Source of the DNA: Bilabrum cf. latius
Lineage: Eukaryota
Length of the DNA stretch: 64,000 nucleotides
Assembly: GCA_965178125.1 (NCBI GenBank)
Contig: OZ237750.1
Coordinates: 558,001 to 622,000, forward strand
Reading direction: 5' to 3'
Below are positions 331 to 62,400 of the stretch, in pieces. A program made the translations under genes and the position numbers. The stretch's first letter is position 1. The number at the start of each line of letters is the position of its first letter. The notes below the pieces were generated by a model. That model had not been told where the DNA came from. It ran no database searches and saw only the letters and a list, made by a program, of their open reading frames with translations.

Positions 331-3095
331 ATGATAAGGACAGAAGCCGCTATAGTATCTGGTGCTATTTTTCGGACTGCTTTGCGATGTCGTGGCGCAA
401 CGCTTCTGCGATAGACCTTGAGTGCCGCTGGACAGCAGAAAAGATTTCGAACAGTGATGCCCTCCGTCTGGGGAATCGACATCACGTGCTCGCATCCAGA
501 CGCGGCATCGTTGTATGATGATGCAGTCAATTCGGTAAGCAGCTCTTGAGTACCGGACCCTGCTAGCTCATGTCCGTCCTCTCACCGCAACCACTTCACG
601 CGGACATCACAACTTTCGTCTTGCAGTACTTGTCCCTCACGGGCGATCCTAGCGGGAAATGTGCAGCGGCAGTCGAGCGTGATCCTGGAATGGTGATGTG
701 TATTGCTTTGGATGGTTTTCTGCACCTGCTATCAGGTGGCTGCACTGGGGATCACCCGGCGGTTCGCATAATGCGAACTCGAGTCCAAAAGCTCGTAGAA
801 AAGAACCACTGCAGCCATCGCGAGCGATGCTTCGTAGCAGCGTTCACATCTCTAGCAGAAGGAAGATCCCGCGAGGCCACCGCTATTCTGGAAGCCTGGC
901 TGCTGGAGCAGCCGGTGGACGCTCTCGTAGTTCGGGTTCTCCACGACATCTACTTCCACCTGGGCGATTCCCAGCAGCTGCGGGATTCTCCTGGGCGAGT
1001 CCTAGGCGGATTCGATGTAGCGAGACCGGGATACCTCAAGGTGTGCGGCATGTTTTCGTTTGGGGCCGTGGAGATGCACCAGTACGGCCTGGCGGAGGAG
1101 CAGGGGATGCGAGCACTCTCCGAAGACATGAGAGATCCTTGGGCATTGCACGCAGTGGCGCACGTGTATGAAATGCAGGGCAGAAAGTACGAAGGCTAGC
1201 GACTTCTGCGAACTACAAGGTACTGGTGGGATTCGGCCAACTTGATGTTTACTCACCTGCACTGGCACTGGGCATTGTTTCAGATCGAAGACGGCTAGTA
1301 CGAGAAGGCGATGCAGAGGTACGACATGTGGATCAGGGACGGGCACAGCAATCAGTCCCTAGACCTTGCAGATGCTATTTCAATGCTGTGGAGAATGGAA
1401 TTGGCCGGACAGAACGTCTATGACCGCTGGATGGAGATGCAGCCGCTGGTGCGCGACCACTGCGGGAAGCACACTACCGCGTTCTTTGACGTGCACTATG
1501 CCATGTGCCTGGCTGCATGCGGCGACGATGATGGATTGGATGAGCTGATGGAGTCCATGCGCCGGTATGCCCTGGATAGTCCCCTGTATTCCGAGGCGCA
1601 CTCGAGCACCATTCCGACCCCAGCAGACGAGGATGTGCCTCTGGTCGATCCCACCTGGGGCTGGGAACCGTGGATGACGCAGGAATCGGAGGATGAGGCA
1701 AGGTGGAGATCGTTCTGGAGCAGCAGGGGCGTGCCTGAGCACGCCACCATCGACCCAATCGCGCCAGATCCCACCACTGGGGAGGAAGTTAGCAAGCCGA
1801 CAAGGCCGGAGCCTGGCAGCGCATCGCAGGCATCGCACGATGGAGATCTGTTGGAAGAATCTAATGCCGTGAAGGGGTACTCTCTCAATAATACAGCAGA
1901 TAGCACACATCGCTCGCAGGAAGGCATCGTGCCAGTGAGCAAGGAGTCCGACCCACTTGGAGGAGGAGAGCGCACCGCGGGCGTGCCGGCCATGTATGGT
2001 GGGGCAGCCAGCAGCAGCTCCCTTGGCCCATCGTTCGAGGTGCGAGTGGATCCACCCGGTGCAGAGGGGTATGACCCTAGCTCGCTCGTGCTGCCTGTGG
2101 ACCAAGACATCATGTTCAAGTCCAAGGAGGAGGAAGCTGCGCTAAGGGCAGAGTACGAGGAGGCTATGGATGCGCCCAGGCCGGTGCTGACCTGTCCTAT
2201 GAGCGTGCTGCCCACGCTCCCACTGATGGCCACTCCACCTCACGTGCCACCGCGAGAGAGCGGGTCGGGAAATAGCCCAGGGATGCTGCTGCCAAGCGGC
2301 ACGTCGTCTACTGGCAGGGCAAGCCGGCCAAGCGGGTCACAACCAGAGGGCCATGCGTTCAGAGGGGAGATCACTTCGGTGGAATCACCAGCCGGTTCAG
2401 ACACGTGGGCGGATCCCAGGTACGAGACCCACCAGTCTGGACTAGTGAGCATTGGCGGTGTGGGGGGCATTGGGCTGGGCAGCCATTCAATCATTGACAA
2501 TCGGTACATCACCGCAGCAGTTGGCCTCCCGCTCGTGGAAGGCATGGTGGCGTACCGCAGGGGCGACTACGAGACGGCGGTTGAGAAGCTGCTTCCATTG
2601 CGCGGCATGTTGCACTACATTGGCGGATCCAACGCGCAGAGGGATGTCTTTGCGCTCACCCTTGAAGCGGCTGCCACGCAGAGCAGGCAGGTGGTGCTTG
2701 CACGCAGCTTGCTGCGGGAGAGAGTGACAAACCGATCCAACAGCGGCCTGGCCCTGTACCACCTATCTTCGGTTCTGTACGCTACAGGAGAGCACAGGCA
2801 GGCAGGCCAAGCTAGGGATCGTGCGTTGAGGCTTGGGCTGGGCGACGATCGAGCATTTGTTTCGAAGCGCTGGAGGGTCGGCGGCAAGCCCAAGGAGCTG
2901 CACCGCATTGACGTGGAGCACGAGCAGACCGAGGCTGAGATATCCCTGGAGGAGAAGTTGCGGCTGCAACCCAGCGTCGATGAGCGCATGGCCCGGTGGG
3001 GTAGCAAGACTGAGAGCCTTGAGTCGAGCACTAGCGACGGCAAGCAGATTGAATCTGGCAACGAGCAAAGTGGGGGCGGCCAGAGCAGGCAGTGA
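331..3095 (+). CDS. TTC38: Tetratricopeptide repeat protein 38-like, with a long low-complexity insertion
   Basis: Exons 331-534 and 627-3095 (GT..AG intron 535-626). Motifs PSVWGIDIT..AASLYDDAV, DPWALHAVAHVYEM, THLHWHWALF, DAISMLWRMEL and IGGSNAQRDVF. In-frame TAG at 412, 1197 and 1296; ends TGA. The start at 331 is inferred. Confidence 0.88.
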
Positions 3096-3369
3096 CCGGG
3101 TATTGTCACCCGTGTACCTGGATCCAGATCAGATCGATGCGATTGAACAGTATTGCCCATCATGGATGCACGTCACCTGTAAAGGCTGATAAAAAACATG
3201 CACCCCAAAAATCTCCTTATGCCGGGATCCCAGAGATTACCGCAGCCCCTCAGCGATGGCTACCAGGGCAATGACTGGCCGCACCTCAACTTCTTGACGC
3301 AGGGTCAGATCCGTACAGGATACCAAAGCCTTGCGATGACTGCTGCCAAGTTTTCCTGGACGGCCCACT

Positions 3370-6300
3370 TCATGCCTGCGAGGCGAAGGAGAACTTGCCG
3401 CCTGGCCCGACCTCGAAGACAACCTCGTCGTCTACGACGGCAGCCGACTGCACGCCGCGAGCACCGGGACTGAACTTGCCACCACTCCACACCTTGTCAC
3501 CGTTGCACGTGATCGTGACGCTCCCGCATCCTCCCACGGGGCACGCAACGTGCACCTGGCCGTAGGTCCCTCCACCGGCCGGAAGGGTCGCGGTCACGGA
3601 GAAGTCGCCCGCGCGGAGCTGTGGGACACCGCTGTGCTAAGGCACACCCTGCTCCGCGAGAGCTGCCTGCGTGGTACCGTTGGCCCAGGTGATGCTGGCA
3701 GCACCCCGCAGTGAGGGGATGGTGGCAGAGGCACCGCCGATGCGCACATCCCTGGTGATGCGAGGCCGGTACTGGGTCTTGGCGAAGCCCAGGCTGCCGG
3801 GTGCTTGCTGGATGCCCGCGATGTAGTTGAAGAAGGCCATCTCCACGCTGGAGAACATGTGGTGCGCGCGTGAGTTCATTCCAGGGCCGGACACAGGCGC
3901 AGTCCAGAGCTCCCACATGGTGGTGGCTGGCTCGTAACCGTGCTCGCCGCCCTTAATCATGAACCCGAAGGACGGGTAGTCGGACTGCTGGAGAAGCGTC
4001 ACGGCAAGGTCAGCGCGCCCCATGTCCGTCAGCAGCTGCCACAGCACCTTGTTGCCGGTGATGCCGATGCTGACGTGGTTGCCGTGGGTCTTCTCGATGT
4101 CGTCCACGAGGGAATCGAATGCCTCCTGCTCGTATGCCTTGGAGGGGGCGATGCCTCCGCGGCGCAGGGCAATCGCGGTGGACGTTTGCAGCCCGTCCTT
4201 GTTGCCACCACCGGCACCGTATGCCTTGATGCTGGCATCCCAGAACGCAGACTGGAAGTCGTGGCGATACGTCGCCGCGAGGGCACGGTACGACGCCGCT
4301 GCTGCCATGCTGCCGGTAGCGGCAGCCAAATTAGCGGCCGTGTCGATGTCGCCGATGAGGTTGTAGGCGCTGATCAGCGACTTGGGGGGCTTAGGGCCCT
4401 GGGTGGGCGAGTTGACGCTGGTCGGGTACGCAGGAGGTGTTACCCACTCGCCGTAGTGGGCGAAGAGCTTGCCGATGCCGCTCTTGTTCGCGGCCGCAGC
4501 CAGGTCATGGATGTATCCCGCGATGGGCTGCTCGTAGGCTGCCGGCAGGCGCATGTCCCCCGTGTTCTCGTAGATGGCGCGAATGGCAGTGGGATACGCT
4601 GTCTGCCAGCTGGGATCTCCGACGGCCCCTCCAAAGGAAATGGGAACCGTGTCGCCGACCGCGTTGCCATGCGCGGGCGAGTACGGGTTCACCTGCGCCT
4701 CTCTCATGTTGCCAACCCACGAGGGGAAGAGCGTCCACGCGTCGAAGTTGAGGAAGAAGGATTCGGTAGACAGCGCGCTACTGCGAAAATGACGTTTTTA
4801 AAAGAATGAGGTGGTTGTCTAAGTTGCTTGGGGGGGGGGGGGGGGGGATTGCGCAGCAACCAATAGATAGTAAATGCGGCGGCAAGCGTACGCTAGTCTC
4901 ACTCTCCCATCCATCCCTTGCGCTGCGGTGGAAAGGATGATCCAGCGGTTTGCAGCGTGCTTATACACACAAACGAGAACGCTCAAAGGCAATCAGATCG
5001 ATCGAAGTGCGCGCATCAGCAGGCCAGCAGGGCTCACCTCATCCCTCTGGGGGCAGTCGGACACCACGCCCATGGCGTTGTTTGCCTCGACCATCTAGCA
5101 CGCGTGGTGGACCTTGTCAATCAGCTGAGCGGCATCGTGCACCTTCACGTCGCCCTTGATGCTGATGCCCGTCCGGAAGTGCCTCGCGCGGATGAACACC
5201 GATGGCGGGTTCCACGAGTCCGAGCCGGGGCCGCTCGCAGTCACGAGGGCGTACCGGAAGCCGTGCTGCGTGGCCTCGCCGAAGCTGTGCGTGCGGTTTG
5301 CGGAGCCGTCGTGGACGTACGTGTCTGTCTGCCTGGCGCTGCGCAGGTTGCCGACGTACACAGTCCCGTCCAGGTCACCGTACGGGGGATGCATGATGGC
5401 CTCCGCGTGCACGATCGTGAGAGTAAACCCGGATGGAGTGTTGGGCGGGATGACCACCTCGACGGCCCCGGCGATGTTCTGGCCGAAATCGAAGCGGTAC
5501 GTGTTCGCCATGCTGGTGGCCTTGGTGACATTGACAGGGGTGTAATCGTTCATGTTCTGGATCGGGGGCTGCGACTGCGCCTGCAGCTTGATGTCCTTTG
5601 CGAACGGAAGTGCAGCCTTGGCTGCCTGCCACTCGAGCGATGCTGGCGGCGTCCAGCCAGCCTTGGTCCAGCCCGGCGTCTCACGCCTGGCGTCATACGT
5701 CTCCCCGTCATAGACAGAGTCATTGGTGCGCGGTCCGCCGCCGCAGGTCCAGCTGGCGTCCAGGACCTCCCCTGCATCCCTGAGGGGTGCAGCTTCCCTG
5801 ATCGGGCTGCTGGCAGGCAGGCCGGCCAGGTCTTGAGTGGCATCGGGGCCGAATAGGAGATCTGCCTCCATGGCTGCCAGGCCCTAGTACTCTGTGGTCG
5901 GAGCACCTGGCGCGTTGGTCACCACGGTCGCCTTGGAGCCGTCCTGGAAGGTGAGGGACAGGAGGGCGATGGCCTTGCGCTGGGCCCCACCCCGCTTCCA
6001 TGGAACGGCGCCCTTGGACACCGTGCCGTTCCAGGGAGCAGGAAGCACGTCGGCCCAGCCGTTGCCCAGCTCTAGGCCTACGGTCACAGACGCGGTCGAG
6101 GTTGCCACGGCACTCGTCACGTCGGAAGCCCAGTAGAGCACCCGCTGCCGAAAGCCGGTCCACGAGGCCTGCAGTCTCCACGACTCGGGACCGACGAGCG
6201 CGCCGTTCACCCAGGCGCGGCCATTGCCGGTGGATGCCATGTACATGACGGCCCGTTTGATCCCGCCAGCCGCCTGTGCTGCAGAGGTCAGGCTCACCTC

Positions 6301-6924
6301 GGTCCGGAAGCGGTTGCGAGCGGCTGCGGTGTTTTCCATCTCGCCGGACTGGTCGCAGCCGATCCAGGCTGCGTTCGACCAGTCACCGGACTGCAGCAGG
6401 CCCACGCGGAACGAAAAAGGCTGGGACCAGTCGCTCATGGTTCCGTCGCTCTGGCGCACGCGAGCACGGAAGGCAGCGTCAGTGTCCGCCGGAAGCGGCG
6501 TGGCATCGAGATTGCCGCGCAGCGTGGATTGGAGTGACGGACTTAGAGCTGATGAGGGGTATGCAATGGCAATAGTGGAATTGCTTTCCACCTCACCACT
6601 GTCCCAGAATAGGCCAGATCCCGACGGTAACGAGCTCGCGGGTCCGACTTGCACTTGGTACGACTTCACCGTCTGCCCCACGGCGACATTTGGGAGGAAC
6701 GTGAAGCGAGGAGACGGAGTGTCAATGGTTGCGTACTCGCTCGAATCCAAATACCTGCGCGCAATGTGCAAAGAATGATTGAGGACCAAGATTATTTTAT
6801 TGTGCGATCTTGTGACTACGCGCAGGAACCTGCGGGGGACTCACTCCACAGAAAGCTCTGTTGGTACAGAGGCAAGGCACGAATAAACTGATAAAGCGGC
6901 TACTATGGATGCGAGGCCTCGCAT
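3370..6924 (-). CDS. Secreted alpha-L-rhamnosidase (GH78)
   Basis: Exons 6924-6845, 6754-5038, 4922-4903 and 4780-3370. Signal peptide MRGLASIVAALSVYSCLA. Motifs DFGQNIAG, HGFRY, DCPQRDE|RKGWMGD, ATTMWELW, MNSRAHHMF and C-terminal VFEVGPGGKFSF-TGA. In-frame TAG at 5884, 5095 and 3637. Confidence 0.9.
4830..4847. repeat. G18 homopolymer (C18 on the sense strand) in a GH78 intron
   Basis: Read directly; lies within intron 4781-4902. Confidence 0.95.
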
Positions 6925-6981: not shown

Positions 6982-8301
6982 TTAGCGGAACCTCGCGTGC
7001 GCATCACGTTCACGAGCCGCCCTCGCGCCTGCAGAGCGCCAAGCAGAGGCATCACCTCTAGCAATATCCGCCACTTCCTCCAGTGTCTCCACAACCAGAT
7101 CTGCCATGTCCAGCGCTGCCACATAGTGCTTGCACGGCTCCCAGCTGGAGTCACCCGCTGAACCAGCAGGGGGCAGATCAGCCACGAGGCAAGACAGCGC
7201 CCCTGCACGCCATGCGGTTTCCATGTCATCGATGGTGTCGCCGACCATGATTGCCCTCGCCTTCAGCTCCGCTGGCAGTCCGGCACCAACGGATGCCATC
7301 GAAACGAACTCTGGCACCTTGGGTGCTCGCGGGTCACCGGGAGCAGTGCCCGCCCCTGCACCTGCACCTACCACAGACTTGGATACAGGTTCTCCCACCG
7401 ATGCAGCGGCCTTGCTTGGGTCAAGCGTGGTACTATCTCTTGATTTGCTCTCGCTACTGCCAGACAAGGAGCCAGAGCCGTGCACGCCTCCGCCCTCAAC
7501 CTCGCTGCTCGCCGTCCCGGAGCTGCCGCCATCGCCAACAGGAGCGTACACGTCAGGATACAGGCTGAGCTCCTCCGATGCTCGTTTCTGGACTTCCTGA
7601 CGGAGCATGCGCATGGGCTCTGGCTAGGCTGGGGCTCCGCATGAGGCCAGCAGGGCATCGACGGGGACCGAGGGCAAGAGCATTTCTGCTGATGGCACAG
7701 CTAGTGCTGGCTGTTCTTGCGCATCTGCACCACTGCTGGTAGCATCACACGCATGGACTGACGCGGTGCTGCTAGATTGCGCCTTGCCTGTCGCTGTCGA
7801 TGCCGCAGCACTGCCCGTGCCTGCTATCGTGTCAGCGCATGCACCAAGGATGTGCAGCAATGGGGCCGCGTGCGGCTTTGCTGGTTCAAATTCTCGGGGA
7901 ATAGCAAGCGCAAATGCCGGGCAATCTGCGTCCACTTTGGCCTGGTATGCGGAGAACTCGGGGTCGCTGGGAAGGACGTCATCCAGCAGGGCATCGACCG
8001 CTTCTTGATTGTTCCGAGTCAGAATCGCCTGCGACACGCCCAAGCTGTGGACATTGCTAATTGCAAGCCCTGAACCGGCCCGCAATCTCTGATTCTTGAT
8101 GCCGAGCCGCTCCTCTTCCACCAAAATTTGATTCAAGATCGCCTACTCAGCGTGCGGCTTTGATCGAACATAAGCAATGATATCCTCCCCATCAGGCACC
8201 TTGCACCGGCGACGCATTCTTCGAAAGTCGATGGAACCCCTCTCAGTCAGCGTTCCATCCATATCCCACACAACAACACGCAACGCGAGGTCGAGGCTCA
8301 T
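6982..8301 (-). CDS. HAD-superfamily hydrolase (YOR131C/At2g33255-like)
   Basis: Motif I VVWDMDGTLT, motif II ILTRN, motif III AKPHAAPL and motif IV MVGDTIDDM lie in one frame only if TAG at 8143 and 7624 is read through. Ends TAA at 6982-6984. Confidence 0.85.
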
Positions 8302-8547
8302 GCTCGCCTTCTACCTTTGGCCGAGCTGTACGGACCTACAAGAGAGTAGTTTTGGATTATACCGGCAAGATAGGCTTCTACGTATACTATTGCAAGAAAT
8401 TAGACGGAAAATGGCGAACCTTGCGAGTAGTATGCAGCAATTTTGGGACTAATATGATCCTGATGGTGACGTGGAGCTGCCGTCGTCACACGGAAGTGCC
8501 CGACGGTGAGTGTTTCGCGCCGTTTGCTGCCACACCGCAGCCTCAAC

Positions 8548-10260
8548 ATGTTGAATTCGCTGCTTGGGATAGGTCTTCTGCAAGCTTTACTCTCTGATGC
8601 CGGGCAGGTTCCGCTGACGCCGCTAGAGTACGCCACCCCAGCCGATGCGCGTCTTTTTAGCTACAACACCGTATTGGGCCCCATCCTGCAAATTCCTTAC
8701 GACAACAAGGGGCTAATCGCTGGAATTGAGGCCCTAGGTTTAGGGTCAGTACGCTACCCAGGTGGAACGGTGGCCGATTACTGGTCGATGGCAAAAGGGA
8801 ATTACATTGATCACTGCGAGCAGAGCCTGTGCTCTTGCTGCTAGTTCCAGCCCAACATATCATCGTTCCCCGATGGAACTTTCTCACCAGGAGCAGTCCT
8901 TGCTCCGGGGTCCCTCGGACGCGCAACAACGGCGACCCCAATCTTCGACGTGAACGTTCTGACGTTCAACACAACTGCCGCGCTTGCGGACCTGGATTCG
9001 TTGGCGAAGCAAGTGGATTCAAGTGATGATGTGGAGTTGTTTGAACTGGGCAACGAGTTCTACCTGCCAGATTATCGCTGGCGATTTCCCAACGCCAGCA
9101 CGTACATGGAAGCGTCCGCACCCGTCGTCTCGAAGGGTCGCGAGCTGTTCCCAGATGCCCTGGTGCTGGCCGTTGCGTGGGAAAGCCACCTGCACACCAC
9201 TGACTGCGGTGACGACTGGAACTCGCAGGTTGCCGCGTCTCGGCATCTCTACGACGGCGTCACCCTGCACGACTACTCGATCGGGAACGGTAGCGTGACT
9301 AAGAAGTACCAACCGGACCAATATGCGACCGTCGTGGCGAGCTGGTCGAGCGCACAGGTCCGCGCGTCGATCCAAGGAGTCAACTCATGCTTTGGAAACG
9401 ACACCTTGATCGCGCAGACAGAGTACAATTACGTGGCCGGCACGGGGACGGGCTACGGGCCCTACCCACACTCCCCCCTGCTCTACCCCTACGGAGCCAT
9501 CCACGGGATGTTCCAGGCCGGCCGGATCCTGGAAGCTCCCTACCACACCACCAGCACGCCAACCCCCCCGCGAATGCGGAGGGCAGCAGCACTGGGAGGC
9601 TTGTCCCCCAATGCTGCCGAGATCCGCTGGAGCAGGTACGTCTCCATGCACATGCACGCGTTGGCCGAAGACACGGACGTGGGCTGGGACGGCCATTCGG
9701 GTGTTCTGCAGTTCAATGCATCGCTGGGTCCGGACGCGCCACCAATGGTCAGCGGCGTGGGACAGCTTTTCGCCCACCTGACCAGGGCAGCGCGCCCTGC
9801 GCCGTGGTCTGCCTTCGAGCAGAAGAAGGGCGGTGCCGCTGATGGTGCTGCCCGAGGTGCTGCTGGCAGCGTGCCCGCCTCGTACTTTGTGCCTCTAGCA
9901 CAGCCCAGTGGCGGACCAGTGGTCCCTTTGGATCTCCGAGGCGAGACCGGCCTGCCTTGCATGCAGGGCTCTCTGTTTGTGGAAGAACCCAGCAAGAGGG
10001 CCTCGCCTCGGTTCGCCGTGATCAACCGATGCAACCAGAGCATCACAGTGAGCCTGCCTGCATTTGACCCAGCAGAGGCCAGTGCCTGGCTGTACTCTGC
10101 CGAGGACGAGGGCGGGTGGGCCCCGCTCCCTCCTAAAGGCGCTCCCGTGCCGTGGACCTCCGGTCCTTTGCACCCTGCATCTGCATCGGTGGACTGCGGC
10201 GACAGCAGGTGCAGCATAGAGATGCCAGGAGTGTCCATGGTCATTTCTGCGGGGGCCTGA
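8548..10260 (+). CDS. Secreted clan GH-A glycoside hydrolase (GH51/GH79-like)
   Basis: Signal peptide MLNSLLGIGLLQALLSDA. Motifs RYPGGTVADYW, FELGNEFY (acid/base) and IAQTEYN (nucleophile). One in-frame TAG at 8842 between the motifs; ends TGA. Exact family uncertain. Confidence 0.75.
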
Positions 10261-13107: not shown

Positions 13108-13285
13108 GCTGTGCCCAGTTGCCGTTGCTAGTGTGCCTCGCAGTTCCGAAGGTTCGGAAACAACTTTGAAGAAAATTGAAAACTCTGAGCAGGCCTTACG
13201 CGTAAGGAAGGAATACGTATGTTCACTATAACGATATCAACGAGCAGCAGTGGCAAGAGAAAGAGAAGTCGCCGACAGGCCCCCT

Positions 13286-23734: not shown

Positions 23735-23874
23735 TGCTCAGTAGTGAAATGAAAGATTTGGAGAATGACTGGTTCGTTGCAGGTTCGTTCCGCTTCGCAG
23801 CAGAACATGGCGGCGCCATTGGCGCGGCGGCACACAACCCCGGCCAAAAGCAGAGATACTGGTGCAAGGAACAA

Positions 23875-28180: not shown

Positions 28181-28211
<31 letters not shown>

Positions 28212-32300: not shown

Positions 32301-32545
32301 CATGAACAACGACGAAATTGTTGAAAGAGCAAGTATCGTCGGCTATGATTGGAATGGAGGCCCGCTCATGACACAATTTTCTGGCCTTCGCGACCACCAC
32401 CTCAAGATTCGCAGGCATCCAGGATTTGCGACCAACCCGCAATCGTCAGCACACACGAACAGACAAATGTCATTTTCGGTGCCGTACATCGAATTGAACC
32501 GTCACAATCCCAACGAATCTACGATTTGGCGATCTTGGAGTCAGT

Positions 32546-35500: not shown

Positions 35501-36757
35501 CCGCCTGACTCCTTCAGCGTCACGCCGAGCAGGCCGTTCGGGAGGCGGCGGCCGGCGGGAGGCCACGCGCAGAGCAGCCTCGTGGCAGTCCCAGACAAGG
35601 CACCCCTCGACAGCGAGGACCACCACCACGGTGCTCACACTACCAGGCATGTGACAGGCCGATCTGACCCTAACGTCACTTCCTCCACAATCGCGGCGCA
35701 GCGAAAGAGGCGCGGCGAGAGGCTGGGTGACCCGGCCGAGCCCAGCTCGTAGTCGGTTGCCGCACCCAGGGACGGGCGTGGCCGGGACGGGCGCAGCGTG
35801 ATCACGATGCCCAACGGGCTGCGTCGCGACTCGAGCGTGTCAGGTGTGACGCGGGGCTCCGTGGTCACGCCCGCCAACGATGACAACCTGAAGCGCGCGC
35901 TGATGCGCCGCGTGCCCACCAAAGACACGATGGTGTCGGACATGTCCGATGACCTCGCCGGGATGGAACCGACGGGTTCCGATCACCAGACGGTAGGCGG
36001 GTCCACCAACGACAGGGGCAATGGTGCAGACAGCCGGGCGGATCGCGCGCTGACGAGCGCCACGGGACTCACACAGCTGCAGGCGCTGGACGAAGGGGCT
36101 GGGGCTTCAAGAAACAAAGGAGCCATCGGGGGCTTTCCGGGTAGGAACGGCAGGCACGGGTCGCAGATAGGGCGTGGGCAACAGAGGCTCGAACAGGGGC
36201 TCAGCCAGGATCAAGGGCAAGGGCAAGGGCAAGGGCAAGGGCAAGGGCAAGGGCAAGGGCAAGGGATGCCAGCGGAGCGACTTGGAGTGGGCACGAGGAG
36301 AAGGGCAGGGAGTGGAGATGCGGCGGCCGCGACGAGTGCCAGCACTATCACTTCCCCCGACACTGGTACAACGATCAAGTCACCCAAGCCTCCAACCAAG
36401 CAGCCATCGGCTGGTTCCTCGCAGCGGCAGGGCAAGCAGAACCCTCGACACCGCAGGATGCGCACAGGCAGCTCATCGCCCTCGAAGGCGTCGCAGAGCC
36501 GCAGCACGATCGAGAGCGGTGGTGCTTCGGTGGCCTCGAGCATGCAGGTGGGTGCGGCTGCTGGTGGGAGTGCCCGTGCTGGCGTGACTACGACAGGGCC
36601 AGGCGGGTCATCATCGTTGAAACGAAGGGACACGAGCCCCGCCATTGCTGCAACGACACGTGGTGCCCTGGTGGGCTAGCTGGGGGCAATGCACGCGGGC
36701 TAGGCGTCCCAGAGCGGGCGGACGATTCCTGTGAGAGTGACAAGAGACGACCATTGA
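32546..36757 (+). CDS. Class 2 DYRK kinase (DYRK2/3/4-like), ~1,400 aa, intronless
   Basis: NAPA/DH box (LSEFEQSEILDY, GYDDDRANY), HCDIKPEN, IDFGSSC and YTYIQSRFYRSPE. Subdomain XI (CLAIDPKKRLTPAEALRHPF) lies past TAG 34742. Ten in-frame TAGs; ends TGA. Confidence 0.88.
36212..36265 (+). repeat. (CAAGGG)n microsatellite encoding (QG)n in the DYRK tail
   Basis: About nine tandem CAAGGG units read directly. Confidence 0.9.
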
Positions 36758-52900: not shown

Positions 52901-55900
52901 GGATGGCGCAGCGGCTCGTGTGGCTGCAGGGGGCAACCTGGAGTCTCCCCGTCTGGTGGGCAACATCTCGTGGGACGGCGTGCCTGCGTGGGAGGATCTA
53001 GGCGATGCGGAGGCGCCGTCCAGCAGTCTGCTGCCGCGGGGACCGGACCTGCATGCCGCCACCGCCACGCTGCAAGCGGAAGTCGACGATGGCGCCTGGG
53101 CAGATCAGGAGGGCCTGGGCTCCTCCCAGCTGCAGTCGGCCCAGGCACAGCTCCGGGCCGTGGCCAACGCCACCACCGGCATGTCGTCCAGTAGTGGGGT
53201 GGCGCGTGTCCGGTTCCCGCATGTGGGCATAGCCGGCGTATCGTCGTCAGCATCTGTGGTGCTCGGAGCTCGATGCGCATGGGGAGACACGTACAGCATG
53301 ATGCGGGCCCCGTCAGCCGTGCGGCCGCTGCTGCGTGCAGACGTGCTGCCACTGTCGGTGGCTCTGGATCGGGACAGCATGGCTGCGTAGATCGCCGACA
53401 CCGTGCAACAGGATGCAGCGCGCAGATCCAGCAACGCCTCCGTGGCGCCCGTGGTGGTCGTAGCTCCATGGTCGCACAGTCCCGACCAGGACACCTCCCC
53501 GACTCCTCGAGAGGTCGTTGGTCAGGTGCAGCCCGAGGGCCAGGTGCTGGGACTGGTGCCGGCGCCTGTGGCCACGGTGAGCGCGGTGCCTCCGTTCGAC
53601 AGACTGCTGGTGCGCGGGACCACGCCGCGCAGCAGTAGCTCCCGCCTGGACTCCGAGCAAGCCGCCAAGGTGCAGCTGCATCTGCGCAAGACCCCTGGAG
53701 CAGCGACACGATCTGACCACCAGTGGCCGGGCCGCCTGATAATGCCCCACCTCGTGGCAGGCCGTGAGTCCCAGACCGACCGCGCCCCGCTGCCGGCCTC
53801 CAGCATCGTCCTTGCCAACGCTTCTGACAGCCGGCCGCTGGTGCGGGGACTGGGCAGCAGCGCATCGCAATGGGCGGCGAGATTTCAGCGTGTCGGGCTG
53901 GCCACACTACGCGCGGACCAGCTGGACACCGCCATGCACCGTGGCGGAGCCGCGTACCTGTCTGTGGAGGCCACGTGGATCACGGGCGAGACCTTCATGC
54001 ACTCTGCTCACGGCAGTGATGCATCGGACCTGCTGGCGCTGGTGCCGCCCATGGCGGTGCGCTGGTGGACGGGCGAGGGCGGGGAGCTGGACGCATGGCG
54101 AGCCGCGGCACATGATCTGCTGGTGACAGCGGAGCATCAGGCCGATGGTCAGGCGTCCGTGGACACGGTTGCGCTGACTGCCGCTATGCCCAGCGTGAGC
54201 CGCAACTACATCCTGAGCGGGTCAGCCCCGGATGTGCCTCTGACCGATGCCGAGCTGCAGCCGGCCCTGCCATTGCCTCGGGTGGTGGTGGGCATGGTAC
54301 TGCCGTGCAATCTGACGGATGCGTGGCCGGGTCTGTGGGAAGTCCCGGAGGCTGGGTCCTTCGAGGCCGGCCAGGGCGCGGGTGCTGGTCTGAGATGCAG
54401 GGCGCAATCAGCGCGAGCTGACGAGCTGCAAGAGACCAACCAGGCCGCGACCGCGCTGCTGCGACTGCATCGGTCCATGGCGGCTGTGGGTGGATGGCAG
54501 GCGCTGAGCGGGCCTGATGCGAGCACATGCGGGTCCCCGCCAAGGCTGCGCTGCGACGCCTTGCTTGTATCGACATCTTCGTCGTCGGATCCCGGGACCC
54601 TCTTGGATGGTGACCTTGTAGGCTGGACCCGCATGTACACCGTGCCTGTGCCCGAGCCATGGCAGCGGGATCAGGGCTTGGGCGTTGTGTGCGAGCAGTC
54701 GATTGCGCTGCCCGCGGTGGCACAGGCCCACTCGCTGGGCGTGGCATCAGACTTCGACAGTGTGAGCACTGTGGATGCCACATGCCAGTGGCTGACTGGA
54801 GGAGCAGTGCGGTCGCGAGACGGCCCGAGAGTATCATAGGCCAACTCGCATTCCATGACAGGCAGCTTGCTGTCGGTGCAAGTGCCAACAGTGTCTGTTG
54901 GATGGGCAAAAGTGGATAATGCTGGTAGCCAATCCATCGCACAATGCCCGGCGACAGATCCACTTGCTGTGCAACAGGCCGTGGACTTGCTTGCCTCCGA
55001 TGTCTCTGGAAATGACCAGGCGGGGTCTCCCCTCAAGGTGCTGTATGGCGATACACACCCGGTTGCGGTGAGCATTACAAAGTCGTATGCTAATGGACTT
55101 GGTGGCCTCATATTCTTGCCGTTGTCACCAACTGAAGCTGCCGCCACCGGCTGTACCCTGTCAGTCGCCGGTTCTAGCGGGAGCGACGAGGCAGCGAGGC
55201 TGAAAGGAGGGGAGGCTTTCACGTTTGCTCGGCCTCAAGTTCAAGCAAGTGCCGGCGATGCGTCCATTGCTACGCTGTGCATGCAGCTACTGGCAGATAG
55301 AGGGTCAAGGGCACAGCTGGTAGTGTAGTGTGAGCTGTCAGGGCGTATCGTCTACAGTCCGCAGCTACACGTGAAACTGCCTGAGCTTCAGCTGAGATTC
55401 ATGCAATGGCTAGGCACCGTGGCCAAGCCCAGCACGCCGCAGCAGCCGCTGCCTATCAGACCTGCCGGGGCTGTGGGTTTGCAGGATACAGACAGACAAG
55501 GTAGGCCCCTTCCTGCGCAGTGTATCGTGCGCTTAGACGAGGCTGCAAGTCTCCTCGACGATGCATCTAGGCCGTGGGTGAGGCCTCCACTGGGTCACGA
55601 TGGGAGCTAGGATCCCACGCTGGTGACGGCTGCCCTGCTTGTGCCTCCTGCGGGGGGCTACAGGCCATCCGTGGATCTTGATGTACTGGATCTCCAGCTG
55701 GACCAGCGCTAGGCTCGGATGGAGCAGCTGGGCATGGACCCCGACAGCTAGCACGCCGCAACACTCACGGGATCAGCGGGTCTGCCAGCACGCAAGCTGC
55801 TTCCAGTGGTTGCGGCCCTTGATTCCCAGGAGCGCGAAGCAATCATTTCGCTCGGAGGTGTGGTTCCACTGGACCGCGTGGTACTGTAGGCAGACTATGG

Positions 55901-58610
55901 ACAGGTCCTGGCACTTGAAGTGGAGTGTTTCCGTGAGCAAGGCGGCGAGTCGGTGCTGCATCGAGCTGAGGTCAGGATGCGTGGTGATGTGGCTCGGTGG
56001 GCTGTAAACCCTCCAGTATCCGTGTAGTCGCAGGAACCGTTCGAAATGGCGCTTGAGATAGTCACGGTTTGGGACGGGCACGCTGAAGTGGACCCACCTG
56101 TGCGGGCCGTGGACGAAGTGCACGTGAGCTGCGAGGCAAGGCTGCTGTCGGACGATCCTTCGGTACTCCTCTTCAATCCTTCTGCAGTGGCACGGGGGGG
56201 GCTGGTGGAGTGGCCAGCTATCGCTGCTCTGGGCAGGGCTGGGATGACATACGATATTGAGGTGGTGTGCTTCCGTGGCGAGTCGGTGCGCATGCCTGGA
56301 ACACCGATCCGTAGTCGCATCAAGGTATAGCCCTGTGGACCAGGCAGTGAGCCTACGGGGCTAGGCGGGGTCCGGTGCGGGGACTGTCCACCTCTGTCGT
56401 ACGCTCTCGGGGGCGATGGCCAGGCGTGCAAGTCCTGTCCAGATGAGCTGGGCTTCGCGTCGTGCGCAGGTGGAATCCTGCAGCTGCCCAGCAAAGGGTG
56501 GTACCTTGTGCCGGATGAAGATTCAGCCCCTGTAGTCAATGCCAGCACGGGAGAAAGGCTACTCACGGCCGAGTCCGAGGTGCACGAGTGCCTTCACGCA
56601 GAGGCTTGTGTCATTGACAGAGACCAAAGGGTGCTGGCATGTGCAGAGGGACACTCGGGTCCACTCTGTGCAGTATGTGATGAAGAGAAAGGATTCGGGG
56701 CCAGCTCAACACCCGGTGAATGCGTGGAGTGCGGTTCTTCGGCTGAGAACTGGGCCTTGGTGGGTCTAGGTGTGCTTGCACTAGCACTGGGTATACTATA
56801 TGTGGCAGTGCTTCAGGCGCCAGGCCGATCGAAGCGCATTGGAGTGGTCTTTAGGATCGGCATGAACTACGTGACGGCACTCGGTACTCTGGGGCTGTAC
56901 AAAGCCAAGGGGACAGAGACGTTCCGCATGCTGATGGGATGGACCGAGACAGCAGGATCTAGCCTGTTTGCAGGCAGCCCTTTGCAGTGTGCGGCGCGTC
57001 CAAGCTTCTACACGGTGTTCTACACGGCGATTCTATTTCCGGTGGTGGTGAGTGCGGTCGCCATTGTGATGAATGTTCTAGCATTCCTAATAGAGGCCTT
57101 TACAGGTGCCAAGGTGCGGCACACAGACTTGTCCATCTGTTCATCAGCAACTGGATGCATATTGCAGACCTGTCAATCTAGGGGCAGAGGTCGTTCAAGT
57201 GGTAGCGCACGTGGTGCTGGTCTCAAAATGACCACACTCTCGAGCAATCCGGAATTTTAGCCAGTGGACCAGCCTCGGGCTGGCAATAGGCCCGGTGGAA
57301 TTCGTCGAAAAGACACGCGTACTGCCAAGACGCTAATGACTCAGAACCCGCTGCAACCATCACCAGGTCCGAATTCAGCTACAACGTCGCCAGTGGTGGA
57401 TGCTTCATCAGATTTCAGCACGAATAACCCTCTACAAGCCTCTGGACACGTCGTACCTTTGCCAATACTACAGCAAGATGGCATGAACGGCAGGGCAGAT
57501 GAACCACTTGGCGCATTGCTGGAGTACTTGGTGGAGCTTCGCTTCATGGGGACAGCCGTGCTGGTGGCGTGCCTGTCCTACACAGTGGTGTCTTCCATGG
57601 CCTTGTCGGTCTTTGACTGCCTACCAGATGCCATCGGAGGCCGAGTGTACCTCAAGCGCGATCTGCGCATAGAGTGCCACGAAGGCAGCCATGTTGGACT
57701 GCAGGTAGGGGCAGGCGCAGTGCTGCTTATTCTGGGTCTGGGACTGCCCGTCGGGGTTGGTACTTTGCTATATCGCACGGATTCGCACATACTGCGGCAC
57801 AATGATGCTTTCTTTGAGCTTTACGGGTTCCTCTACCGCGGGTATGATATTGATCGGGGCCTGCAGTCTTGGGAGTCTTTGGTAATGATTAAAAAAGTGG
57901 CCATCGTAGCTATTGGGTCACTGGTCACGGAGCCATACAATGCCGTGCAGCTTTCCATCAGCATTTCAGTGGTGGCACTCGTCCTCCACGCGCTCTACTA
58001 CCCTTACGAGCAGCTGCTGCTCAACCGTGCAGAGCTGGTGTGCCTTCTGGCGCTCACCATGACCCAGGTGCTATCAGTCATGTACCTGCGAAGCGAGGAC
58101 ATGGCGCTGTCCGAGGAGGCCGAGCTCGAGTCGGCGGGTCTGACCGGCCAAATGGGTGGTGGCAGCAGTGGTGGTGCAACGCTGCAGGAGTAGGGTGGAA
58201 GGAATGGCTCGTTGGTTGGGATGGATGGGGACACACTGGTAGGGACTAGTGGCCAGGGGAAGTTGTCGTCGCGATTGTATGGCACGAGCGTGATTGTGAC
58301 TCTAGGACTGTGCGTTGTGAACTTTGTGGCTGCTGGTGTGTTGCTGTACACCGGTGTTCAAGTGTGGCGGGAGGATAAGAGGCAGCAGCTGCTTGAGTCC
58401 ACTAGCACAGCACGCCCAACGGTAGTTCCGAGCTGTGCGGAGCCTGAGCATAAGGAGGAGTCGCGACTAGCAGCATTCCTGGCAGGCAGTCTGCACGGCT
58501 AGCCACGAAGGACGGGGGTGGGTGAGTCTTCTCGCCGGGGATTAGCGGCGTCTCAAGGCGGCGACACTATCTAGAGTGGAAGTCGGTCTAGTGGGAAACT
58601 GCTGCAGTGA
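37929..58610 (+). CDS. Giant (~6,040 aa) cell-surface multi-pass membrane protein: signal peptide, RCC1-like blades, GG-type beta-helix repeats, duplicated 814-aa block, Cys-rich region, polytopic TM domain
   Basis: Exon 37929-38015 (signal peptide), six 114-nt exons, then one exon 41253-58610. All ~29 ORF-track pieces in the last exon share one frame, and every gap I translated contains only TAG; ends TGA at 58608. C-terminal motifs CAEGHSGPLCAVC, YLKRDLRIEC, YGFLYRGY..WESLVMIKK and YPYE..LLNRAE. Confidence 0.85.
38148..41142 (+). repeat. Array of six paralogous phase 0-0 exons (114 nt, 38 aa), each one RCC1/BLIP-II-like blade
   Basis: Exons 38148-38261, 38568-38681, 39263-39376, 39891-40004, 40360-40473 and 41029-41142. 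Each is flanked by cag| and |gt(g/a)ag. Consensus xxAGxxHSCGxERSGRIRCWGxNxxGxAPxxVSGDFxQ. Confidence 0.92.
49999..54872 (+). repeat. Near-identical tandem duplication, period 2,442 bp (814 codons, frame-preserving)
   Basis: Copies approx. 49999-52440 and 52441-54872. Matching ORF-track entries are offset by 2,442 (e.g. 50961 and 53403). Confidence 0.97.
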
Positions 58611-59428: not shown

Positions 59429-62400
59429 TTAAGACCGGCGAGCGCGCCTGCCGTGCGCCACGCTGCTCTCAACGGGAGGGTATGCCGCCCGGATGGCGGG
59501 TCCAAGTGGCAGCAGATATAAATCGCCCGAGTGGGCGCCTTCCAGTCCATCCTCCTCCTCCTAGCCCTGTGCCTGCTTCGTCGCCTTACCCCCTTTCTTT
59601 TTGCCCTTGTCGGCCCCTCCGCGGGCAGGCCCCGAAGCCGCTGCATCCGACGCCTCGATGCCCCCGCCAGCGAAGCCCCCAAACACAGCCAAGCAGGGCT
59701 CTTCACACGCAGGGTACTCCTTGAGAGCCTGCTTGTTCCACCCCGCCGCCTGCAGTGCGCCTGCCAGTCCGCCCGGCAGAAGCACAGCGCTGTGGCCGGT
59801 GCGCCGCAGCACCCCCGCGTCCTCTCGGGATACCTCCAGCTTGTGCCAGGCCTGCGCATGCGTGTTCAGTACGTAGTAGGCAGTGTCTTCGGGGAAGTCG
59901 GGGCAGTCCCAACCCCCGAGGAACAGCACGAGCCCGTCCCCTATGCGAGTGGCCGTGTGCCCGAACCTGGGCGAGGGCCTGGCCCCGAAGCACTCGAGGG
60001 CAGACCACCGGAGAGACACAGAGGAACCCTGGTTGGCGGGGGCGAACTCGTCCAAATCCACGTTGTCGTCTTCCTCGTCCTCATCTTGGTCGGCATCCGA
60101 GCCGCTGGCACTTGAGGAAGATGCCGACTTGCCGCGCGCTTTCTTGCTCGCCTTTTTGCTAGGCGACTTCCTCTTCTTGCCCTTTTTGCCCGAGCCGGCC
60201 TCGACCACTTGAGCAGTCAGCAGGTGCACGTCGCCCAGCGCGTCATCGTCATGTACCCCGCCGAAGAGCACCGCAGTGTCGCTATCAGTGGCCGTCAGCG
60301 TGTGGAAGGTTCGGCCCGAAGGAGACTGCCCCTTTGGCCTGCTCGCGTCCCAGCAGTACTTCTCGAGGTCGAGCACGTGCACGTCCTGTGGCTGGCCGCG
60401 CTTGGCCTGGCCGCCGAACACAACCATGGACTTGCCGAGGCAGCACATGGCCGGGCTGGTGCGCGCTGAAGGCGGGCTTCCCGAGATGTTCGGCGTGAAC
60501 CACAGGGCCACGTCGAGGTCCAGAGTTTGCACCGTGGACACGGGGGAGGAAGGCTTGTTCTCTCCTCCGAAGCTGATGGCCATGGCTGTGTGCTCTGCAG
60601 GGGTGAGGGCATGCCACGCCCTGCAATCGGGCTTGTGTCCTCGGGGCTCCTCCCATGCCAGCTCACCGAAATCGAACTGCAGCGTATCGCCCAGCGACAC
60701 GGCCTCCCCGGACTCGTTGGTGGAGCCTCCGTGCACGGCAACGCACCCGTGGGAGGTGAGGCAGCTCACGTGTCCCCATCGCGGTTTGGGAGCAGGACCG
60801 TCCGCCTTCCTGGGCCGCACCTGAACAGGACGGCCTGCCTCCAGCCGCTGGGCGATCGACACCAGTGCTTGCTGCACCACCTGCGGGACGGGCCGCCCCT
60901 GCCCCCTCACCACTGCGCTTGCAGCCTCCACGAGCTGGTCCATGTCCATGGAGGCGTGCCCCAGGTCAGCGATGGACTGGGGGATCGTCATGGGCTGGCT
61001 GGATGCTTCCTCAACGACGTCGCCGGAGCCAGCGCCGGAGGACGGACCCGCAGAGCTGCTGGTCCCGCTGCTAGGGTCCCTTGGCGGCTGCACGATTCCA
61101 TCTTCCTCGTTTGCCACGCGCTCCAGCCGTCGCCTCTTGGGAGCCGACTCCTCAGAGGCGCTGGATGCCTCGCCGCTCGGGACGTGGGCCTCCTTGCGGG
61201 ACTGGGACGCAGCAGCTGCGGTCTTGAGCCAGTCCGGTGAAGTCTCATTTCCCGCACCCGTTGTCGTGCCGCCGGCACCACCGGCTCGTGTCCCGCTGCT
61301 GGGAGTGGCTACGTGCTGGCTCGACGGCTGCCGTGTCGTCGGCTGGGAGCCAACTGAGGCAGCCGAAGACGCTGCAGCTGATGAAGACGATGAGGACGAG
61401 GTGGGTGGCCTCTTACCGCTCTTGCTTGGCTCATTGTCCTCGTCTTCGCTGTCAGCCATCATCAAGCTGTCCACGCCTCCTCCTAGATCCGTCTCAAGCT
61501 CAAGCTCACTCGACCCGCCGTCCTGGGTCAGGTCCAGAGCATCCTCCACATCCCCTGGCCCAGGGCTCATCTGTGCCAGCGATATATCGTGCTGCTCCTG
61601 CTGCTCCACGGCATCGCCATCCCTGCTCGCGACAGCACCTGCGCTGCCGCGAGAGCTCTGCCTGCTGCCCCTTTCGCTCACTCTTGGGCGCTTGGAACCT
61701 AGTCCCAGCCCGCCTGACTTGCTGGCCTTCTCGGCCCCTGCTCCATCTGTTGAACCATGATCATCATCGCAGTCGCCCTCCATGGCCACCGCGGGTGACT
61801 CCGGCTTGCCCGTCCTCAGGAAGCTGTCTAGGCAGCCGTTGCGCGTTGGGGAACCAACCTCGCCAGCCCTGCCAGCTGTGCCCGATGCACCTCGTCCGCG
61901 CCGAGAGCGCCTCACTGGGGAAGCATGGACGGGCACTTTCTGCTTCTGCCCGCCCGCTTTCTTTGGTTTGGTTGGGGACTGCTGCACGCGGCGGTTCTTG
62001 TGAACCCCCTTTGAGGCAGCCGCTTGGGACGGTGACCGCAGCGGGCTGCGCTGCGCGGCGGCAGATGCGGCTGCGCGACTCGTGCCCCTAGCTTGAGCAT
62101 CATCATCGAGATCTTCAGTGTCCAGGTCGGTGGCCGAGGCCTGGTTGCGAAGCATGCTCTCGCCCACGTCCTGCACGGCAGGCACGGCTGGCGAGGACCC
62201 TCCGGCATGCGCGCTGCTCGCGCTTCGTGCTTTGGAACCCTGTTTGAGGGAGAATGACTGCGCAGAAGGATTTAATTTATTGCCTTGATGTGCAAGCACG
62301 GCCGACTGCAGCATGCTTGGGGGTACTGATTCAGTCTTCTAGGTTTGGCTGTGGTCGTCTTCTGCATCCCCATTGGCTCCACTCGCCGAAAATGATTTCG

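What the first reader, a model, noticed from the sequence alone, without database searches (positions are those of the whole stretch)
331..62342. Non-standard nuclear genetic code: TAG is a sense codon (most likely Gln) while TAA and TGA remain stops
Seen: about 95 in-frame TAGs (manual count) interrupt 12 genes on both strands, including inside conserved catalytic domains (AGMO, DYRK, GH78, HAD, GH-A, TTC38, Kelch). The same genes show no frameshifts and no internal TAA/TGA. Known: in most nuclear code variants (ciliate/table 6 type) UAA and UAG change together. UAG-only reassignment (table 15 type) is rare, reported in e.g. the fornicate Iotanema spirale (Gln), an uncultured rhizarian (Leu) and a few ciliates. 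Inference: this GC-rich, intron-containing flagellate does not look like those AT-rich ciliates and may be an independent origin. It should carry a tRNA-Gln(CUA) and an eRF1 that rejects UAG but accepts UAA/UGA.
Basis: partly seen in the sequence, partly recalled or inferred. Interest (0 to 1): 0.97.

Follow-up and report, generated by a model that had tools for sequence, protein, structure and literature searches.

The report
TAG read as glutamine, stramenopile flagellate
In this GC-rich protist genome the stop codon TAG is used inside genes as an ordinary codon, most likely for glutamine, while TAA and TGA still end genes; this is a rare kind of genetic-code change, seen here in a relative of the flagellate Cafeteria.

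Summary
In 16 reading frames (16,866 codons) TAG occurs in frame 94 times; TAA and TGA occur 656 times in the other two frames of the same stretches. One frame runs 5,799 codons with 47 TAG and no TAA or TGA. Spliced transcript contigs from two other studies carry 20 of these TAGs unchanged, so they are not spliced out, edited or sequencing errors. Glutamine is the best reading. One TAG sits on a Gln that is the same in 120 of 120 AGMO homologs. Two TAGs in a TTC38-like gene align to Gln in the 4 nearest relatives that span them. In closer relatives, 2 of 2 alignable ORF ends fall on CAG-Gln codons of the window. TAA is not a sense codon: 0 in the giant frame against about 17 expected. The organism is a stramenopile; its nearest named relative is Cafeteria. 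No such code was found in print for stramenopiles. The tRNA-Gln(CUA) and the eRF1 change could not be tested, because no genome is held. Whether TAG also ends some genes is still open. This is a new lineage with an already known code type (table 15).

The parts
570..3092 (+). TTC38-like gene. In-frame TAG at 1197-1199 (codon 210) and 1296-1298 (codon 243). Ends at TGA.
   Evidence: 3,120 homologs at E<=0.001. The 4 nearest relatives that span these sites have Q at both TAGs. It gave no Pfam hit.
3370..6840 (-). GH78 alpha-L-rhamnosidase in two frames (3370-4797 and 4993-6840), with 1 + 2 in-frame TAG.
   Evidence: Pfam Bac_rhamnosid6H, Bac_rhamnosid_N and Bac_rhamnosid. Three solved GH78 chains have I/T/L at the second TAG, which is a variable column.
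6982..8586 (-). HAD-like hydrolase frame with 4 TAG. Two are upstream of the likely start; one (codon 148) is inside the Hydrolase match. Ends at TAA.
   Evidence: Pfam PF00702. One solved homolog (2ybd) has S at the TAG.
8470..10260 (+).
   Evidence: No Pfam hit and no PDB hit.
10390..13236 (-). Open frame of 948 codons, unknown family, 8 TAG.
13286..18304 (-). Clathrin heavy chain: 1,672 codons with no TAG, CAG 74 against CAA 2.
   Evidence: Pfam Clathrin 1.9e-172. Codon counts. P(0 TAG) = 3e-5 at the rate seen in the other genes.
23875..25988 (-). AGMO (alkylglycerol monooxygenase) main exon. TAG at 25444, 25075, 25033, 24283 and 24082. Intron 25989-26238. Ends at TGA.
   Evidence: Pfam FA_hydroxylase and AGMP_C. 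The TAG at 25444 aligns to Q in 120 of 120 homologs. All 5 TAGs lie inside transcript contigs of X5, X6 and X7 with 0 differences. The C-terminus after the last TAG matches relative P0002 to the last residue.
26702..28975 (+). Open frame of 757 codons, unknown family, 8 TAG.
   Evidence: 5 of the 8 TAGs lie inside a transcript contig of X5.
31017..32300 (+). TMEM17-like (ciliary transition-zone family) frame, 3 TAG.
   Evidence: Pfam Transmemb_17 2.6e-12.
32498..36757 (+). DYRK-family kinase with 10 TAG; the one at 34742 is inside the kinase domain. Ends at TGA.
   Evidence: Pfam Pkinase 2.5e-46. Human DYRK2 at 3.8e-100, with S at the TAG in a variable loop. All 10 TAGs are inside transcript contigs.
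41211..58610 (+). Giant open frame of 5,799 codons: 47 TAG, 0 TAA, 0 TGA. Transmembrane C-terminus and an internal 2,442-bp tandem duplication.
   Evidence: No Pfam family and no homologs found.
59429..62602 (-). Kelch-repeat protein with 2 TAG, both outside the Kelch domain. Ends at TAA.
   Evidence: Pfam Kelch families. Positions.

Best explanation
This is nuclear DNA of a GC-rich, intron-bearing stramenopile flagellate related to bicosoecids. In it the codon UAG has been reassigned from stop to a sense codon, most likely glutamine. UAA and UGA remain stops, with UGA far the commoner. Shown here: UAG lies in frame in at least 11 genes, is kept in spliced mRNA, and falls on Gln positions of homologs; UAA and UGA are excluded from coding frames. 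Inferred from how all known cases of this kind work: a tRNA-Gln with anticodon CUA, one base away from the normal CUG, decodes UAG, and eRF1 has lost efficient recognition of UAG while keeping UAA and UGA. UAG makes up about 11% of presumed Gln codons (94 against CAG 547 and CAA 182). It is absent from the one clearly highly expressed gene, clathrin. That suggests it is decoded less well than CAG or arises mostly by neutral CAG-to-TAG transitions. Closer relatives known only from unnamed contigs seem to share the code. More distant ones, Cafeteria included, have ordinary Gln at the same sites.
For: Coding frames: 94 TAG in 16,866 in-frame codons, against 656 TAA+TGA in the two off frames. One frame of 5,799 codons has 47 TAG. 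mRNA: contigs of X5, X6 (study P2) and X7 (study P3) skip 10 introns with GT..AG or CT..AC ends that the DNA run X1 does not skip. They cover AGMO 23811-25988 and DYRK 32483-36202 with 0 other letters and 0 gaps. Twenty TAGs lie inside them. Translation goes on after TAG: the AGMO C-terminus after its fifth TAG matches relative P0002 to the last residue. Residue: AGMO codon 181 is Q in 120 of 120 homologs. The 93% relative P0001 has Q at two AGMO TAGs. TTC38-like codons 210 and 243 are Q in 4 of 4 nearest spanning relatives: P0241 (Cafeteria), P0242, P0246 and P0411. Summed log-odds over 3 columns are Q +4.79, then K -3.43. The ORFs of relatives P0336 and P0243/P0408/P0409 stop exactly before residues that are CAG-Gln in the window. 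TAA: 0 in the giant frame against about 17 expected, P = 4e-8. Counting TAA as sense as well barely lengthens the frames. Stops: 14 frames end at TGA and 2 at TAA. Lineage.
Against: Only 3 TAG columns are well filled with homologs, and one of them drives the Gln result. In the wide TTC38 sample, codon 210 is mostly I/L/V (Q 5 of 142) and codon 243 mostly E/D/R (Q 17 of 141). Other TAGs align to S (DYRK2, a HAD structure) or I/T/L (GH78) in distant solved proteins. One AGMO TAG aligns to A in P0001, in a gapped stretch. The RNA status of X5-X7 is the tool's guess; X5 is even marked 'probably DNA'. I rest it on the spliced joints. The stop codons of the relatives' ORFs were not seen as DNA. That TAG never ends a gene is not shown: frames were read through TAG by construction, and DYRK and the giant gene each have two TAGs within 36 codons of their TGA. 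No tRNA, eRF1 or peptide evidence was obtained.
Confidence: 0.82

Rival explanations
1. TAG has two meanings: it is read as an amino acid inside genes but still ends some genes, depending on context, as UAA does in Blastocrithidia and all three stop codons do in Condylostoma.
For: This is not excluded. Frames were extended through TAG by construction. DYRK has TAGs 26 and 18 codons before its TGA, and the giant gene has them 36 and 12 codons before its TGA; any of these could be the real end. TAG is absent from clathrin, as expected if release factor still competes for it.
Against: Four TAGs in the last 40 codons of about 15 genes is close to the roughly 3.4 expected at 0.56% per codon (my arithmetic). 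So there is neither the depletion before stops described for ambiguous codes (PMC11687900 passages) nor an excess. In AGMO, homology continues to the C-terminus 69 codons after the last TAG.
Confidence: 0.1
2. TAG is a sense codon but stands for a residue other than Gln (Leu, Glu, Ser, Lys or Tyr, as in other lineages).
For: Most TAG columns are variable. I/L/V dominate one TTC38 column and E/D/R the other. S or I/T/L appear in distant solved homologs.
Against: The one invariant column is Q in 120 of 120. The nearest relatives have Q at 4 of 4 conserved sites. The log-odds favour Q by about 8 natural-log units. The relatives' ORF ends fall on CAG codons, one transition away from TAG.
Confidence: 0.05
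3. Both TAA and TAG are reassigned (the ciliate table 6 type), and TAA is merely rare because the genome is GC-rich.
For: TAA is the rarest stop triplet (186 in the window). Only 2 frames end in TAA, and neither end is confirmed by homology.
Against: There are 0 TAA in 5,799 codons of the giant frame against about 17 expected from the off-frame TAA:TAG ratio of 0.36, P = 4e-8. CAA is a quarter of CAR codons, so A-ending codons are tolerated. Reading TAA as sense changes the top 16 frames only slightly, for example Kelch 1,057 to 1,078.
Confidence: 0.02
4. The TAGs are artefacts or defects: base-calling errors, pseudogenes, or sites removed by splicing or editing before translation.
For: None was found. 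The one listed difference between runs (27861 G>A, low depth) does not touch a TAG.
Against: Contigs of four runs from three studies agree letter for letter over 20 TAGs. Spliced transcripts keep them. Only one of the three stop codons is affected, in at least 11 genes on both strands, with no frameshifts.
Confidence: 0.01

Closest known systems
Iotanema spirale (Fornicata): UAG = Gln, UAA and UGA stops (Panek et al. 2017, PMC5304391; abstract and passages read)
   Same: Only UAG is reassigned, and to Gln. UAA and UGA show no in-frame use. UAG is a minority Gln codon.
   Different: Iotanema is an anaerobic metamonad known from a transcriptome, with UAA as its main stop. Here the organism is a stramenopile with about 60% GC, and UGA ends 14 of 16 frames. 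Its eRF1 carries T32G in the GTS motif; the eRF1 here was not seen.
Phyllopharyngean ciliates and Protocruzia tuzeti: UAG = Gln or Leu with UAA kept as stop (McGowan et al. 2024, PMC11687900; passages read)
   Same: UAG is reassigned alone and used widely as a sense codon.
   Different: These are ciliates with 27-54% GC in which UAA ends 87-98% of genes. Here UGA is the main stop and the lineage is unrelated.
Rhizarian exLh (UAG = Leu) and the green alga Scotinosphaera (UAG = Ser) (PMC5304391 passages; PMC11687900 passages)
   Same: UAG is uncoupled from UAA in a non-ciliate nuclear genome.
   Different: The residue differs: Leu or Ser there, Gln as the best-supported reading here.
Table 6 type codes (UAA and UAG = Gln) of many ciliates, Ulvophyceae, Hexamita, Streblomastix and Amoeboaphelidium (listed in PMC11687900)
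   Same: Stop-to-Gln reassignment. The probable route is an anticodon change in a tRNA-Gln.
   Different: UAA is also a sense codon there. Here UAA is absent from coding frames.

Membership tests
UAG-only reassignment to Gln (NCBI table 15 type) | UAG occurs in frame inside conserved coding sequences | tested here: met
   94 TAG in 16,866 codons. TAGs lie inside the FA_hydroxylase, Pkinase and HAD matches and in conserved TTC38 and GH78 stretches.
UAG-only reassignment to Gln (NCBI table 15 type) | UAG is present in mature mRNA (not spliced out, not edited) | tested here: met
   20 TAGs lie inside spliced contigs of X5, X6 and X7 with 0 differences. The RNA status is inferred from 10 intron-skipping joints that the DNA run X1 lacks.
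UAG-only reassignment to Gln (NCBI table 15 type) | UAG columns align to Gln in homologs | tested here: met
   Q in 120 of 120 at AGMO codon 181. Q in 4 of 4 nearest relatives at both TTC38 TAGs. Log-odds Q +4.79 against K -3.43. There are only 3 well-filled columns; the wider samples of the two TTC38 columns are not Gln-rich.
UAG-only reassignment to Gln (NCBI table 15 type) | UAA and UGA are not used as sense codons | tested here: met
   0 TAA against about 17 expected in the giant frame, P = 4e-8. Frames hardly lengthen if TAA is read through. TGA is the commonest off-frame stop triplet (561 in the two off frames) and ends 14 of 16 frames.
UAG-only reassignment to Gln (NCBI table 15 type) | UAG does not end genes | tested here: inconclusive
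   No case requires TAG as a stop, and AGMO is read through 5 TAGs to a conserved C-terminus. But TAGs 12-36 codons before the TGA of DYRK and of the giant gene cannot be judged.
UAG-only reassignment to Gln (NCBI table 15 type) | A tRNA with anticodon CUA and Gln identity | not testable with these tools
   No tRNA in the window (ARAGORN; Rfam). No genome is held.
UAG-only reassignment to Gln (NCBI table 15 type) | eRF1 N-domain altered so that UAG is poorly recognised | not testable with these tools
   eRF1 is not in the window.
Table 6 type (UAA and UAG = Gln) | UAA is also used in frame | tested here: not met
   0 in-frame TAA in the long frames.
Ambiguous stop/sense codes (Condylostoma, Blastocrithidia type) | The same codon ends genes and is depleted just upstream of true stops | tested here: inconclusive
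   4 TAGs in the last 40 codons of about 15 genes against about 3.4 expected. There is no depletion, but the sample is small.
Stramenopiles, near Bicosoecida (placement of the organism) | Groups with stramenopile sequences in gene trees; nearest named homologs are stramenopile | tested here: met
   Clathrin: the best named hits are Pythium, Phaeomonas and Ascophyllum at 47% identity. In a quick ML tree of 27 rows, the query plus 3 unnamed rows (support 100) is sister to the other 11 stramenopile and unnamed rows, joined at support 100. The nearest full TTC38 homolog is from Cafeteria. The sampling held only top hits, with no alveolates or rhizarians, so the placement is provisional.

The most novel reading that the evidence does not exclude
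This is the first non-canonical nuclear genetic code in Stramenopiles. It would be an independent, evolutionarily recent UAG-to-Gln reassignment in a small clade of bicosoecid-like flagellates. Some members are so far known only from metagenome contigs, where automatic gene calls cut their genes at TAG. It arose in a genome of about 60% GC that ends genes mainly with UGA, which is the opposite of the AT-rich, UAA-terminating setting of most earlier cases. With Cafeteria-like relatives on the standard code, it would offer a close pair for working out how UAG is split from UAA.
Probability: 0.55. Interest if true: 0.8.

Novelty: new member of a known kind. Interest (0 to 1): 0.72.

Why it matters
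Nuclear codes in which UAG and UAA have different meanings are rare. PMC11687900 (passages read) lists about eight lineages. They bear on an open question: why the two codons almost always change together. A case in a free-living stramenopile could be compared gene by gene, tRNA by tRNA and eRF1 residue by residue with nearby relatives that use the standard code. It shows that neither AT pressure nor a preference for UAA as stop is needed. There is also a practical side. Standard-code gene calling cuts this organism's proteins and those of its relatives into pieces, as the public ORF fragments P0336, P0412, P0243, P0410 and P0001 show. Its genes are therefore under-represented or truncated in protein databases.

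Tried and rejected
(1) No whole genome is held for the window, so Codetta-type inference and the tRNA and eRF1 searches were impossible.
(3) The giant frame (residues 280-2800) was searched against shorter proteins, to catch relatives' ORF fragments that span its TAGs. None of the 8,000 candidates scored.
(4) I tried to fetch relatives' DNA from metagenome contigs, to read the stop codons at the two Gln positions and to test a more distant relative's code. The relatives' stop codons were therefore never seen as DNA.
(5) An exact look-up of 10 of the window's own TAG-bounded ORFs found none in the collection.
(6) Solved-structure searches for more TAG columns gave only variable columns for DYRK2, GH78 and one HAD protein, and nothing for 8545-10257.
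(7) The two copies of the 2,442-bp duplication differ at one TAG (TTA against TAG), but in a diverged stretch, so this is uninformative.
(8) No listed holder of the stretch is on record as RNA; RNA status was inferred from the joints.
(9) Rfam found nothing in the window.
(10) Seven literature searches for a stramenopile, bicosoecid or Bigyra UAG reassignment found none. Two papers opened on that lead were irrelevant (PMC10120064; PMC7468197). The library holds only CC-licensed PMC papers and bioRxiv, and supplements are closed, so a report elsewhere cannot be excluded.

Full report
**What is in the sequence.** The window has about 56-65% GC in 4-kb steps, contains no N, and is densely packed with eukaryotic genes on both strands. 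Under the standard code the longest stop-to-stop frame is 1,672 aa. If TAG is read through, it is 5,799 aa (41211-58610 +, 47 TAG), and the codons in frames of 300 aa or more rise from 13,258 to 30,199. Reading TAA through changes almost nothing (14,014). Reading TGA through also inflates the figure (40,247), so this measure is not proof on its own.

Pfam names many of the frames:
- GH78 rhamnosidase
- a HAD hydrolase
- clathrin heavy chain
- a PDI/ERp38-like protein
- a NEK-like kinase
- AGMO
- TMEM17
- a DYRK kinase
- a Kelch protein
- a Dus enzyme

A TTC38-like gene has no Pfam hit but 3,120 homologs. In 16 frames trimmed to RNA-supported exon borders (16,866 codons), TAG occurs in frame 94 times. 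The two off frames of the same stretches hold 95 TAA, 266 TAG and 561 TGA. In-frame TAG (0.56%) is thus nearly as common as off-frame TAG (0.79%), while the other two stops are excluded. At about 0.019 TAA+TGA per off-frame codon, a 5,799-codon frame cannot stay open by chance. Of the 16 frames that end inside the window, 14 end at TGA and 2 at TAA. One of the 14 is an exon end of GH78.

**Are the TAGs in the mRNA?** Ten public runs hold part of 23800-33700. X1-X4 hold all of it and are probably the source DNA. I laid X1, X5, X6 and X7 on 19000-38900. X5 and X6 (study P2) and X7 (study P3) contain contigs that skip ten short intervals with GT..AG ends on the + strand or CT..AC ends on the - strand. 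Examples are 21226>21328, 21733>21833, 21932>22075, 25988>26239 and 30178>30309. X1 does not skip them. The tool only guesses that these runs are RNA and marks X5 'probably DNA'; the spliced joints are my reason for treating these contigs as transcripts.

Such contigs cover AGMO 23811-25988 in all three runs and DYRK 32483-36202 in X5 and X7, with 0 other letters and 0 gaps. Twenty TAGs lie inside them: 5 in AGMO, 10 in DYRK and 5 in the frame 26702-28975. Splicing, editing and base-calling error are therefore excluded for these sites. Two TAGs of the crude frames do fall in RNA-supported introns and were dropped before the count of 94.

**Which residue?** I read TAG as X in every query, so that the alignments were not biased towards Gln.

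- AGMO. The TAG at 25444 (codon 181, 'ALRX') aligns to Q in 120 of 120 homologs. The 93%-identical relative P0001 has Q there and at the next TAG. At the third TAG it has A, in a gapped stretch. The other TAGs lie in lineage-specific inserts. After the fifth TAG the C-terminus still matches relative P0002 to the last residue.
- TTC38-like gene, wide sample. The 150 best representatives are not Gln-rich at the two TAGs. Codon 210 is I 60, L 22, V 16, A 11, Q 5 of 142. Codon 243 is E 36, D 32, R 29, Q 17 of 141.
- TTC38-like gene, nearest relatives. The four nearest relatives that span the sites (P0241, P0242, P0246, P0411) have Q at both.
- Log-odds. Summed over the three well-filled columns, Q scores +4.79 and the next residue, K, -3.43. 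The AGMO column drives this result.
- Distant solved proteins give S (DYRK2, a HAD protein) or I/T/L (GH78) at other TAGs, all in variable columns.

**Closer relatives.** Cluster look-ups show that in closer, unnamed relatives the TTC38-like gene was called as separate ORFs on the same contigs. P0336, P0412 and P0243 lie on contigs of 7,580 and 4,891 bp. P0410, which starts just after the window's second TAG, lies on a 57,410-bp contig that also holds P0001. That contig is therefore a syntenic close relative (97% and 93% identity). P0336 ends exactly before a residue that is CAG-Gln in the window and Q in the four other homologs that cover it. P0243, P0408 and P0409 end exactly before another CAG-Gln. 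That is 2 of 2 ORF ends that can be aligned without doubt. The end of P0001 lies within one residue of a window TAG in an indel-bearing stretch. The end of P0412/P0276 cannot be aligned. The simplest reading is that these relatives carry TAG where the window has CAG.

**TAA, TGA and possible double use of TAG.** If TAA were a Gln codon too, the off-frame TAA:TAG ratio (0.36) predicts about 17 TAA in the giant frame. There are none (P = 4e-8). Reading TAA through lengthens the two TAA-ended frames by only 46 and 15 codons. CAA makes up a quarter of CAR codons (182 against 547), so A-ending codons are not forbidden.

Whether TAG also ends some genes is open. DYRK and the giant gene each have two TAGs 12-36 codons before their TGA. 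This count is close to the chance expectation of about 3.4 in the last 40 codons of 15 genes. Clathrin, with CAG 74 against CAA 2, has no TAG in 1,672 codons (P = 3e-5 at the rate of the other genes). This fits a codon that is decoded less well or is still young.

**Who is it?** Clathrin is only 53-55% identical to three unnamed proteins and 47% to the best named ones: Pythium, Phaeomonas and Ascophyllum, all stramenopiles. In a quick ML tree of 27 rows, the query plus the three unnamed rows form a group (support 100). That group is sister to the other 11 stramenopile and unnamed rows, and the two are joined at support 100. The sampling held only top hits and lacked alveolates and rhizarians. 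The nearest full TTC38 homolog, P0241, is a Cafeteria roenbergensis/burkhardae protein. It is an uninterrupted 654-aa ORF with Gln at both sites. A TMEM17 homolog fits a flagellate. I therefore place the organism provisionally among heterotrophic stramenopiles near bicosoecids.

**How it probably works.** By analogy with all studied cases, a tRNA-Gln(CUA) decodes UAG and eRF1 has lost efficient recognition of UAG. This follows the passages read in PMC11687900 and PMC5304391: a CUA anticodon reads UAG only, and in Iotanema eRF1 carries T32G in the GTS motif. This step is inferred, not shown. The window has no tRNA, no genome is held, and eRF1 was not seen. The eRF1 figure of PMC5304391 is in a supplement that I could not open.

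**Comparison and novelty.** PMC11687900 lists these UAG-only reassignments:
- a rhizarian (Leu)
- Iotanema (Gln)
- Scotinosphaera (Ser)
- phyllopharyngean ciliates (Leu once, Gln twice)
- Protocruzia (Gln)
- a ciliate with UAA = Lys and UAG = Glu

The code type here is thus known. What is new is the lineage and the setting: a GC-rich genome with UGA as the main stop. In Iotanema and the phyllopharyngeans UAA is the main stop. Seven searches of the held library found no report of such a code in stramenopiles, bicosoecids or Bigyra.

**Verdict.** The finding is a new member of a known kind, of clear interest to people who study genetic-code evolution and of practical weight for annotating this clade.

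Noticed in passing
window 37800-41200, + strand: At least five short open pieces, spaced about 350-450 bp apart, repeat a motif of the type 'CG(V/L)ERSGRIRCWG(S/L)N..G.AP..VSGDF.QVR'. It looks like RCC1-type blades. They are probably intron-separated upstream exons of the giant gene that starts its long frame at 41211.
   Followed up: no
window 49999-54900: There is an exact 2,442-bp tandem duplication inside the giant gene: 49999-50298 equals 52441-52740 at 100%. Both copies keep a TAG at the same place. It may be real or an assembly artefact.
   Followed up: partly
window 36928-37591 and 37246-37464: The depth of the DNA run X1 jumps to 127 against about 13 elsewhere. Contigs of X1, X5 and X6 share a 'goes back 219' joint (37464>37246) with 27 extra letters. 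This points to a repeat or an assembly difference just downstream of DYRK.
   Followed up: no
window 13286-18304, - strand: Clathrin heavy chain is unusually divergent: 47% identity to the best named homologs, and its N-terminal part lies outside the long frame. It shows extreme codon bias (CAG 74, CAA 2, TAG 0).
   Followed up: partly
window 20658-20843 and 23534-23627: Spliced joints with CT..AC ends (minus-strand introns) lie in contigs that also cover the plus-strand PDI gene and the region below AGMO. They suggest overlapping or antisense transcripts, or very closely packed genes.
   Followed up: no
proteins P0001 and P0410 (unnamed 57,410-bp contig); P0336, P0412, P0243 (unnamed 7,580- and 4,891-bp contigs): Public automatic gene calls for close relatives split the TTC38-like and AGMO genes into pieces at what are probably TAG codons. 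Proteins of this clade in databases are therefore truncated.
   Followed up: partly
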